UHGV virus genome: UHGV-0292061
DNA length: 13,522 nucleotides
Strand: one strand, 5' to 3'
Source: a virus
Part shown: piece by piece, positions 8,964-9,084 of the stretch
How the letters are laid out: every line of letters starts with the position of its first letter
Numbering within the stretch: position 1 is the first letter of the stretch
Position numbers and translations under genes: made by a program
Notes under the pieces: model-generated
The model's database searches: none
What the model was told of the DNA's origin: nothing
What the model saw: the letters and a program-made list of their open reading frames with translations, nothing else

Positions 8964-9084
8964 CTGGCAGGTGAAAATCAGGTTTATTTATATATTTCAA
9001 TTAATTGCAAACTGGTCTAATGACAGGGAGAAAAAAATATTGTACAGGTGAAAAGAGAAATAACTTTTAATTATCAATAAATTA
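8964..9084. promoter_or_regulatory. cosB-like region: A+T-rich tract with an IHF consensus (9072-9084) and two copies of CAGGTGAAAA (8968-8977, 9045-9054)
   Basis: TATCAATAAATTA matches WATCAANNNNTTR exactly. A 10-bp exact direct repeat occurs twice, 77 bp apart, between cosN and the small-terminase start. Confidence 0.45.

What the first reader, a model, noticed from the sequence alone, without database searches (positions are those of the whole stretch)
8964..9084. cosB-like architecture: IHF consensus flanked by 10-bp direct repeats
TATCAATAAATTA (9072-9084) matches the IHF consensus exactly and lies in an A+T-rich tract between cosN and the small-terminase gene. CAGGTGAAAA occurs twice (8968-8977 and 9045-9054), which is unlikely by chance in about 200 bp. 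These are candidate small-terminase binding elements analogous to lambda R sites, though their sequence and arrangement differ from what I recall for lambda.
Basis: partly seen in the sequence, partly recalled or inferred. Interest (0 to 1): 0.45.

Follow-up and report, generated by a model that had tools for sequence, protein, structure and literature searches.

The report
Lambda-like phage packaging site (cosB)
This is the DNA-packaging recognition site of a lambda-like E. coli prophage, where a host bending protein (IHF) and the phage's small terminase most likely bind; it is an ordinary kind of site with its own recognition sequence.

Summary
Both observations are real. TATCAATAAATTA (9072-9084) and two exact CAGGTGAAAA copies (8968-8977, 9045-9054) lie between cosN (cohesive end GGGCGGGAGCGT, 9136-9147, minus strand) and the small-terminase gene, a DUF1441 protein.

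Comparison with about 75 diverged cos regions of the same terminase clade supports the interpretation in substance:
- The IHF consensus sits at exactly bp 64-76 from the cohesive end (0-1 mismatch in 56 of 68).
- The two repeats fall on two of five fixed positions (bp 98 and 175) of a CASSTG-type element.
- That element occurs 4.3 times per cosB, against 0.5 expected.
- Both 10-mers are exactly conserved in a phage whose terminase is only 74% identical.

Both repeats lie on the terminase side of the IHF site. Each is 34 bp beyond an IHF-type site; the second such site (8995-9007) was missed. Together they form two ~77-bp modules. This phage has no clear copy at the lambda R3 position.

The cosN-proximal repeat varies in 29% of near-identical prophages. 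No binding data exist.

This is a new member of a known kind: lambda, 21 and Gifsy-1 have the same type of cosB. Interest is modest.

The parts
9170..9176 (-). cosQ-like heptamer GGGTCCT, 22-28 bp upstream of the cohesive end
   Evidence: Same heptamer as lambda, where it lies at -30 to -24. Shown by the alignment with the lambda right end; conserved as GGGTCCTCC or GGTACTCC across relatives.
9136..9147 (-). cosN: 12-base left cohesive end GGGCGGGAGCGT (bp 1-12 in phage numbering; bp n = window 9148-n)
   Evidence: The GenBank records of phages cdtI and Tritos start exactly at window 9147. 8 of 12 bases match lambda GGGCGGCGACCT. The IMG/VR contig behind L272 ends at the equivalent base.
9105..9135 (-). 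Conserved cosN-proximal block CGCGGAAAAAGGCTAGTTTTTGCATTTCCAT (bp 13-43), in the position of lambda I2
   Evidence: Nearly invariant across all cosB types and relatives.
9090..9104 (-). R3-position block GGCGGCGGCAACATG (bp 44-58); it does not resemble the repeats
   Evidence: Relatives carry CTGTCAGCAGCAGGTG or GGGACACCACCACGTG here, with a hexamer at bp 55 in 55 of 68. The window type has GGCGGCGGCA(G/A)CATG, as does the relative with 83% TerS identity.
9072..9084 (+). IHF site I1: TATCAATAAATTA (bp 64-76), exact WATCAANNNNTTR, with an A/T-rich tract 5' of it on the same strand
   Evidence: Identical in 79 of 79 E. coli contigs. Same coordinate with 0-1 mismatch in 56 of 68 diverged cosBs. 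Same strand as lambda I1.
9041..9054 (-).
   Evidence: Hexamer at bp 97-98 in 63 of 68 relatives. Exact TTTTCACCTGT in L295. Polymorphic in 23 of 79 E. coli contigs.
9012..9028 (-). R2'-position block CCCTGTCATTAGACCAG (bp 120-136), a degenerate copy of the clade element
   Evidence: Homologous to CTGTCATCTGACCAG and CTGTCACCTCAAT of relatives. The core is invariant in 79 of 79 contigs.
8995..9007 (+). Second IHF-type site TTTCAATTAATTG (bp 141-153; 1 mismatch to the consensus), with an A/T tract; contains the palindrome CAATTAATTG
   Evidence: The best IHF-like match is always at bp 140-142 in relatives: at most 1 mismatch in 49 of 68 and at most 2 in 68 of 68. Present in 77 of 79 E. coli contigs. 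Lies in a 24-bp block invariant among type A haplotypes.
8964..8977 (-).
   Evidence: Hexamer at bp 174-176 in 67 of 68 relatives. 77 of 79 E. coli contigs are exact. 17 of 20 bases identical with Providencia phage PSTCR8lys.
8424..8963 (-). Small terminase gene (DUF1441). The ORF starts at 8963; the likely start is ATG 8951, preceded by GGAG at 8957-8960
   Evidence: Pfam DUF1441, E 7e-44. Homologues start with MSN(I/V)S. The AlphaFold model has an N-terminal winged HTH.
6316..8415 (-). Large terminase gene (gpA type: ATPase plus endonuclease)
   Evidence: Pfam GpA_ATPase and GpA_nuclease, E about 1e-81 to 1e-86.

Best explanation
Window 8952-9176 (minus strand) is the cos site of a lambda-like prophage of the cdtI/Tritos type.

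Layout, in order along the minus strand:
- cosQ, then cosN with cohesive end GGGCGGGAGCGT, then a roughly 185-bp cosB that ends at the small-terminase start codon.
- cosB consists of two tandem modules of about 77 bp.
- Each module has an IHF-type site (I1 at 9072-9084; a second at 8995-9007).
- Exactly 34 bp beyond each IHF-type site lies a TTTTCACCTG element (9045-9054 and 8968-8977).

Inferred mechanism:
- IHF bends the DNA at these sites.
- The DUF1441 small terminase binds the CACCTG-type elements through its N-terminal MerR-like winged helix-turn-helix.
- This anchors the gpA-type large terminase so that it makes staggered nicks 12 bases apart at cosN and starts packaging towards the terminase genes.

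Shown here: the positions, the conservation and the covariation of the elements, and the predicted protein fold. Inferred: binding, bending and the order of events, by analogy with lambda.
For: Location of cosN:
- The cdtI and Tritos records start at window 9147.
- cosQ and cosN are homologous to those of lambda.

Conserved spacing:
- The TerS ATG is 196-199 bp from bp 1 in 67 of 68 distinct relatives; it is 197 in the window and 191 in lambda.

IHF site I1:
- It is at bp 64-76 with 0 mismatches in 39 and 1 mismatch in 17 of 68 relatives. Mean mismatch is 0.71 there against 5.81 elsewhere.
- It is identical in 79 of 79 E. coli contigs.
- In cosB type B the variation falls only on N positions of the consensus.

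Repeated element:
- The hexamer [CG]A[CG][CG]T[GC] occurs at bp 55, 97-98, 125-126, 174-176 and 187-189 in 55, 63, 39, 67 and 65 of 68 relatives.
- That is 4.3 per cosB against 0.49 per 184 bp of flanking coding DNA.
- The window's two copies are at bp 98 and 175.
- Both 10-mers are exact in L295 (TerS 74% identical), where the R2 and R1 elements match at 14 of 16 positions in a cosB that is otherwise diverged.
- R1 is exact in Providencia phages.

Covariation:
- R2 and R1 resemble each other more within a genome than between genomes (P about 0.02-0.03).
- Clades with a different recognition helix (HRQTAAARL against HRDTVKKRL) carry different repeats. An example is TTCGACACTGAA in Gifsy-2.

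Module structure: the IHF-to-repeat distance is 34 bp in both modules, and 32 of 61 positions are identical in a gapless alignment of the two modules.

Protein: the TerS model (pLDDT 85) has a beta-alpha-alpha-beta-beta-alpha winged HTH that matches MerR-type DNA-binding domains.

Satellite-like elements keep exactly the cosQ-to-R1 cassette, with both repeats, and no terminase gene follows it.
Against: - There is no binding or packaging experiment for this cos type.
- The repeat alone is only modestly non-random (P = 0.036).
- R2 is not exact in 23 of 79 near-identical E. coli prophages: TTTTCAGCTG in 11, TTTTTACCTG in 9.
- The relative with 83% TerS identity (L294) has neither 10-mer exact: TTTTATCTGC and GATCGCCTGC.
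- The window lacks a recognisable copy at the R3 position, which is the critical site in lambda and N15. Its two copies are direct, not inverted across the IHF site as lambda R3 and R2 are.
- In most relatives the R2-position element is on the opposite strand to the window's.
- The profile match of DUF1441 to lambda Nu1 is weak (hhalign E 0.008, probability 5%).
Confidence: 0.68

Rival explanations
1. The two 10-mers are a remnant of an old duplication of a cosB module, or a chance repeat, and are not the contacts that give packaging specificity. The small terminase would instead read other conserved blocks, such as the R3-position GGCGGCGGCA(G/A)CATG or the invariant CCCTGTCATTAGACCAG...CAATTAATTGAAATATATAAATAAA stretch.
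For: - R2 is the most polymorphic element of the cosB: 23 of 79 contigs are variant, and 4 of its 10 positions are polymorphic among 35 haplotypes.
- The relative with 83% TerS identity keeps the R3-position block and the R2'/second-IHF block almost unchanged, but alters both 10-mers.
- P is only 0.036 for the repeat.
- In lambda and N15 the critical site is R3, at bp 48-64 (PMC4669245).
Against: - The hexamer positions at bp 98 and 175 are occupied in 63 and 67 of 68 diverged relatives.
- Both 10-mers are exactly conserved in L295 despite wide divergence elsewhere.
- The common R2 variant CAGCTG is itself the form found at R1 in other relatives, so the variation stays within the family consensus.
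Confidence: 0.17
2. The terminase-proximal copy (8968-8977) is an RNA-level element. CACCU would act as an anti-Shine-Dalgarno sequence that pairs with the ribosome-binding site of the small-terminase gene to limit its translation. The distal copy would then be coincidental.
For: - In Providencia and L266-type relatives, CACCU pairs with the AGGUG ribosome-binding site in the predicted minimum-energy fold.
- The bp 187-189 hexamer GAGGTG doubles as the Shine-Dalgarno sequence.
Against: - Those hairpins are no more stable than shuffles (z -0.4 and -0.7).
- The window forms no such hairpin (z +1.1).
- The window's ribosome-binding site is GGAG, not AGGTG.
- The same element recurs at bp 55, 98 and 125, far from any start codon.
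- Satellite-like elements keep the copy although no terminase gene follows it.
Confidence: 0.07
3. The repeats are bound by another protein, such as a host nucleoid protein or a phage accessory factor, that shapes the A/T-rich cos region, rather than by the small terminase.
For: The region is A/T-rich and carries two IHF-type sites. No direct evidence links TerS to the repeats.
Against: The repeat sequence changes together with the terminase clade and its recognition helix, while cosN, cosQ and the IHF sites stay the same. That pattern is expected for the specificity protein and not for a shared host factor.
Confidence: 0.05

Closest known systems
Bacteriophage lambda cos (cosQ-cosN-cosB with R3-I1-R2-R1)
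   Same: - cosQ heptamer GGGTCCT and a 12-base 5' cohesive end, 8 of 12 bases identical.
- An IHF site on the same strand between cosN and the terminase gene.
- Repeated short elements in a roughly 185-bp A/T-rich cosB that ends at the small-terminase start (bp 197 here, 191 in lambda).
- A gpA-type large terminase.
- A small terminase with an N-terminal winged HTH.
   Different: - The small terminase belongs to Pfam DUF1441, not the Nu1 family, and its profile match to Nu1 is weak.
- The repeat is TTTTCACCTG, not CGTTTCCTTTCT.
- Only two clear copies exist, both in the same orientation and both beyond I1, with no clear R3.
- There is a second IHF-type site.
- I1 is 10-15 bp closer to cosN.
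Gifsy-1/Gifsy-2 cosB (Salmonella; DUF1441-type small terminase)
   Same: - Same small-terminase family: Gifsy-2 is 39% identical.
- A lambda-like cohesive end.
[quoted passage not shown]
- Gifsy-2 shows R3, an inverted R2 and R1.
   Different: - The repeat sequence differs (TTCGACACTGAA).
- The recognition helix differs (B-like clade).
- In Gifsy-2 the IHF-like match reads on the opposite strand.
Phage 21 versus lambda packaging-specificity groups
   Same: Phages share cosQ and cosN but differ in cosB repeats and in the terminase recognition helix. Here four cosB types (A to D) share the cohesive end GGGCGGGAGCGT in E. coli prophages.
   Different: Specificity between types A to D has not been tested. 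It is inferred from sequence only.
Phage N15 simple cosB (single R3, remote rR2, no IHF site)
   Same: It is an example showing that lambda-like cosB sites can lose R copies and still work (PMC4669245). The window type has likewise lost recognisable copies at two or three positions.
   Different: N15 keeps R3 and lacks the IHF site. The window keeps IHF sites and the distal copies, and lacks R3.

Membership tests
lambda-like cos site (cosQ-cosN-cosB) | 12-base 5' cohesive end related to lambda's, located at the virion chromosome end | tested here: met
   GGGCGGGAGCGT matches lambda GGGCGGCGACCT at 8 of 12 bases. The cdtI and Tritos records begin at this base. The ends were not determined experimentally here.
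lambda-like cos site (cosQ-cosN-cosB) | cosQ heptamer upstream of cosN | tested here: met
   GGGTCCT at -28 to -22, against -30 to -24 in lambda.
lambda-like cos site (cosQ-cosN-cosB) | cosB of 120-190 bp between cosN and the small-terminase gene, followed by a gpA-type large terminase gene | tested here: met
   The ATG is at bp 197. The distance is 196-199 bp in 67 of 68 relatives.
lambda-like cos site (cosQ-cosN-cosB) | IHF site (I1) inside cosB | tested here: met
   Exact consensus at bp 64-76, conserved in position across relatives. IHF binding itself was not tested.
lambda-like cos site (cosQ-cosN-cosB) | Three R sequences, with R2 inverted relative to R3 and R1, and I1 between R3 and R2 | tested here: not met
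   The window has two clear copies (bp 94-103 and 171-180), both direct and both beyond I1, and no copy at bp 44-60. Relatives such as L283 and Trabulsiella do have an inverted pair across I1.
lambda-like cos site (cosQ-cosN-cosB) | Small terminase with an N-terminal winged helix-turn-helix DNA-binding domain | tested here: met
   In the AlphaFold model (pLDDT 85), residues 12-60 form beta-alpha-alpha-beta-beta-alpha. Foldseek matches MerR-type DNA-binding domains (RacA probability 1.0, TM 0.61). Sequence-level homology to Nu1 is only weak.
lambda-like cos site (cosQ-cosN-cosB) | Small terminase binds the R sequences and this is needed for cosN nicking and packaging | not testable with these tools
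   This needs EMSA or footprinting and packaging assays.
Nu1-family small terminase (Pfam Phage_Nu1) | Significant match to the Nu1 family profile | tested here: not met
   The only Pfam hit is DUF1441. hhalign to lambda Nu1 gives probability 5% and covers only the HTH.

The most novel reading that the evidence does not exclude
In this terminase clade cosB would be a tandem pair of [R - IHF - R] modules that needs two IHF-induced bends. The cdtI-type phage would have lost the cosN-proximal half-site of each module. Its small terminase would then recognise only two direct copies, 77 bp apart and 34 bp beyond each bend. That is a head-to-tail recognition mode unlike lambda's inverted R3/R2 pair. 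The same cassette would be borrowed by an ~11-kb satellite-like element that carries a second cos of another specificity, which would let it be packaged by two different helper types.
Probability: 0.2. Interest if true: 0.55.

Novelty: new member of a known kind. Interest (0 to 1): 0.3.

Why it matters
It defines, by sequence comparison, the likely recognition element (TTTTCACCTG, family form CASSTG with flanks) and the layout of a packaging site. Copies of this cosB (92-100% identical) occur in about 890 of 5426 complete E. coli genomes, including toxin-converting phages such as cdtI.

Four cosB types share one cohesive end, which gives a natural system like lambda versus 21 for studying packaging specificity.

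The same cassette is reused by satellite-like elements, which points to who can mobilise whom.

None of this changes the accepted picture of how lambda-like phages recognise their DNA.

Tried and rejected
- The first viral-contig scan, with the window protein placed first, returned only 99%-identical loci. Re-ordering the alignment fixed this.
- L293 (TerS 88% identical) has no cosN upstream; homology to the window starts only at the R2' block. It could not be used for the repeats.
- A sequence search of the PDB found no relative.
- hhalign to lambda Nu1 was weak.
- An SD-sequestering RNA hairpin was considered for the proximal repeat and rejected for the window.
- A sigma-70 promoter reading of TTGCAA...TATAAA around 8990-9010 was considered by eye. 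It was dropped because no spacing of 16-18 bp fits, and no scan was run.
- A third copy at the R3 position was looked for and not found.
- Literature searches for DUF1441 and for a described cdtI cos found nothing specific.

Full report
WHAT THE WINDOW IS

All relevant genes are on the minus strand:
- a DUF1441 protein (8424-8963);
- a gpA-type large terminase (6316-8415);
- a lambda-family portal (4599-6179);
- a ClpP-protease/capsid fusion (2627-4846);
- an Rz lysis gene upstream (9799-10266).

The 8400-9450 stretch is 98-99.5% identical to phages cdtI, Tritos and HannyBb. The cdtI and Tritos records begin exactly at window 9147. The left cohesive end is therefore GGGCGGGAGCGT (9147 down to 9136), which matches lambda GGGCGGCGACCT at 8 of 12 bases. 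A cosQ heptamer GGGTCCT lies at -28 to -22; in lambda it is at -30 to -24. Below I use phage numbering: bp 1 = window 9147, and bp n = window 9148-n.

CHECKING THE OBSERVATION

- CAGGTGAAAA is at 8968-8977 and 9045-9054. On the phage strand this reads TTTTCACCTG at bp 171-180 and bp 94-103.
- TATCAATAAATTA is at 9072-9084 (bp 64-76).
- The 10-mer has only these two exact copies in the window.
- The IHF consensus has only this one exact match on either strand (0.52 expected).
- An exact direct repeat of 10 bp or more appears in 3.6% of dinucleotide shuffles of the 184-bp cosB. That is suggestive but not decisive.
- The word 'flanked' is wrong: both repeats lie on the terminase side of the IHF site.

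CLOSE RELATIVES IN E. COLI

The cosB segment occurs at 92-100% identity in about 890 of 5426 complete E. coli genomes. A scan of viral contigs for the cosN sequence showed that four different cosB types (A = window, B, C = O157-type, D) share this cohesive end. They go with small terminases that are only about 40% identical to the window's and have a different recognition helix (HRQTAAARL against HRDTVKKRL). All four types keep an IHF core at the same place. In type B the variation falls only on N positions of WATCAANNNNTTR.

Among 79 contigs with 99%-identical TerS:

| Element | Contigs with the window's sequence |
|---|---|
| I1 (IHF site) | 79 of 79 |
| R1 (terminase-proximal repeat) | 77 of 79 |
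| R2 (cosN-proximal repeat) | 56 of 79 |

The R2 variants are TTTTCAGCTG in 11 contigs, TTTTTACCTG in 9, and others in 3.

DIVERGED RELATIVES OF THE SAME TERMINASE CLADE

Eighty loci whose TerS is 58-95% identical to that of Providencia phage PSTCR8lys were fetched; a subset aligned with the window's TerS is 44-57% identical to it. Seven usable closer relatives (60-83% identical to the window; an eighth, L293, lacked cosN) were fetched as well.

- The distance from bp 1 to the TerS ATG is 196-199 bp in 67 of 68 distinct cosBs.
- The IHF consensus sits at bp 64-76 with 0 mismatches in 39 and 1 mismatch in 17 of 68. Mean mismatch is 0.71 there against 5.81 at other positions.
- A second IHF-type site is always at bp 140-142, with at most 1 mismatch in 49 of 68 and at most 2 in all 68. 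In the window it is 8995-9007, with 1 mismatch.
- A hexamer [CG]A[CG][CG]T[GC] occupies five fixed positions: bp 55, 97-98, 125-126, 174-176 and 187-189, in 55, 63, 39, 67 and 65 of 68 sequences.
- That is 4.3 per cosB against 0.49 per 184 bp of flanking coding DNA.
- The last position doubles as the ribosome-binding site.

The alignment shows the family element as roughly TGTCACCTSA. In most relatives it lies on the bottom strand at the R2 position. It lies on the top strand in the window, L276 and L279.

- In L295 (TerS 74% identical) both 10-mers are exact. The two elements match each other at 14 of 16 positions, although cosN, the R3 block and I1 differ from the window.
- In Providencia phages the proximal copy is exact, within a 17-of-20 match.
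- In L294 (83% identical) neither copy is exact (TTTTATCTGC and GATCGCCTGC). The R3-position block and the R2'/second-IHF block are nearly unchanged.
- In a Klebsiella prophage (67% identical) the two positions read TTTTAACTG and TTTTAGTTG.
- Within genomes the R2 and R1 elements resemble each other more than in permuted pairings (P about 0.02-0.03).
- Gifsy-2, from the other terminase clade, has a different repeat (TTCGACACTGAA) in an R3, inverted-R2, R1 layout.

ANATOMY IN THE WINDOW

cosB reads as two modules of about 77 bp. In both, the IHF-type site is followed exactly 34 bp later by the CACCTG hexamer. A gapless alignment of bp 43-103 with bp 120-180 gives 32 of 61 identities. Relatives carry further copies at bp 55 and bp 125. 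At those positions the window has GGCGGCGGCAACATG and the degenerate CCCTGTCATTAGACCAG. A Trabulsiella prophage carries an overt tandem duplication of such a module.

THE PROTEIN

- A PDB sequence search found nothing.
- hhalign to lambda Nu1 aligns only the HTH (E 0.008, probability 5%).
- An AlphaFold model built from 54 sequences (pLDDT 85) has a beta-alpha-alpha-beta-beta-alpha winged HTH at residues 12-60, followed by long helices.
- Foldseek matches this domain to MerR-type DNA-binding domains: RacA (probability 1.0), BldC, MerR regulators and a viral packaging-protein domain.
- From my own knowledge, the lambda Nu1 DNA-binding domain is of this type.

MECHANISM (INFERRED)

IHF bends the DNA at I1 and probably at the second site. 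TerS winged-HTH domains bind the CACCTG-type elements. This positions the gpA-type TerL on cosN for staggered nicking and the start of packaging, as established for lambda (PMC4669245, PMC9026076).

Weak points:
- R2 is polymorphic.
- The window has no R3 copy.
- Both copies are direct.
- No biochemical data exist.

RIVAL EXPLANATIONS

- A duplication remnant or chance repeat, with specificity read elsewhere in cosB.
- An anti-Shine-Dalgarno RNA hairpin for the proximal copy. It is predicted in some relatives but is no more stable than shuffles, and it is absent in the window.
- Binding by another protein. The covariation of the repeat with the terminase clade argues against this.

COMPARISON WITH WHAT IS KNOWN

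The literature already states that lambda-like phages, including Gifsy-1, have a cosB of R sequences plus an IHF site (PMC9026076). N15 shows that R copies can be lost (PMC4669245). This locus is a further member with its own repeat sequence and a two-module layout. It fails the strict three-R, inverted-R2 criterion but works like the family in all features testable here.

SIDE OBSERVATION: SATELLITE-LIKE ELEMENTS

- In KSC64, BH100 and others, a 92%-identical cosQ-to-R1 cassette lies between an SSB gene and a protease/capsid fusion gene.
- It sits in an element of about 11 kb that carries an integrase and a primase and lies between the two halves of a prophage TerL gene.
- This context occurs in 155 of 5426 complete genomes.
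- The element has a second cos of another type directly upstream of its own C/D-like DUF1441 gene.
- The cassette keeps both repeats. In KSC64 both read CTTTCACCTG.

Noticed in passing
L008 (E. coli KSC64, NZ_CP018840.1 436707-447989); also L003, L004, L014: An integrase/primase/SSB element of about 11 kb lies between an N-terminal and a C-terminal fragment of a prophage large-terminase gene. It carries a 92%-identical copy of the window's cosQ-cosN-cosB cassette with no terminase gene after it, plus a protease/capsid fusion gene and its own DUF1441 protein of another clade. The SSB-cos-capsid context is present in 155 of 5426 complete E. coli genomes.
   Followed up: partly
L008:9850-10080 (minus strand): The same element has a second cos about 3.1 kb from the first: cosQ GGGTCCTCC, cohesive end GGGCGGGAGCGG and a type-D-like cosB, directly upstream of its own DUF1441 gene. 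One element therefore has two cos sites of different cosB type.
   Followed up: no
L009-L128 (viral contigs sharing the window's cosN): Four distinct cosB types (A-D) share the identical cohesive end GGGCGGGAGCGT and the cosN-proximal 30 bp, but go with small terminases only about 40% identical. This is a natural set of packaging-specificity groups like lambda versus 21.
   Followed up: partly
Type B cosB, e.g. L008 (host prophage) and L010, bp 55-85: The IHF core of type B is embedded in an inverted repeat (ACTGTAAT ... ATTACAGT). Its many variants differ only at the N positions of the IHF consensus and in the outer arm bases.
   Followed up: no
L002:640-800 (Trabulsiella guamensis prophage): A tandem duplication of about 75 bp of a whole [CACC-element - IHF site - TTTGAGGTGGG] module lies inside cosB. 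The cosN-to-ATG distance lengthens to 207 bp.
   Followed up: partly
window 9120-9335 (minus strand ORF, 71 aa): An ORF with no Pfam match runs across cosQ and cosN, so it would be split between the two ends of the linear virion DNA. E. coli annotations list a hypothetical protein in the stretch between the lysis genes and the DUF1441 gene; its coordinates were not checked.
   Followed up: no
L293 (JGI metagenome contig, TerS 88% identical): The region upstream of this terminase gene has no cosN or IHF site. Homology to the window begins only at the TTATTAGACCAG block, which suggests a recombination breakpoint inside cosB or a defective prophage.
   Followed up: no
L001 (contig labelled MAG: Veillonella parvula): A contig assigned to a Veillonella metagenome bin carries a 99%-identical copy of this E. 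coli phage terminase and cos. This is probably a binning error.
   Followed up: no
window 8984-9010: A 24-bp A/T block AATTAATTGAAATATATAAATAAA (phage strand, bp 142-165), including the perfect palindrome CAATTAATTG, shows no variation among 35 type A haplotypes. It is the longest invariant stretch of the cosB.
   Followed up: partly
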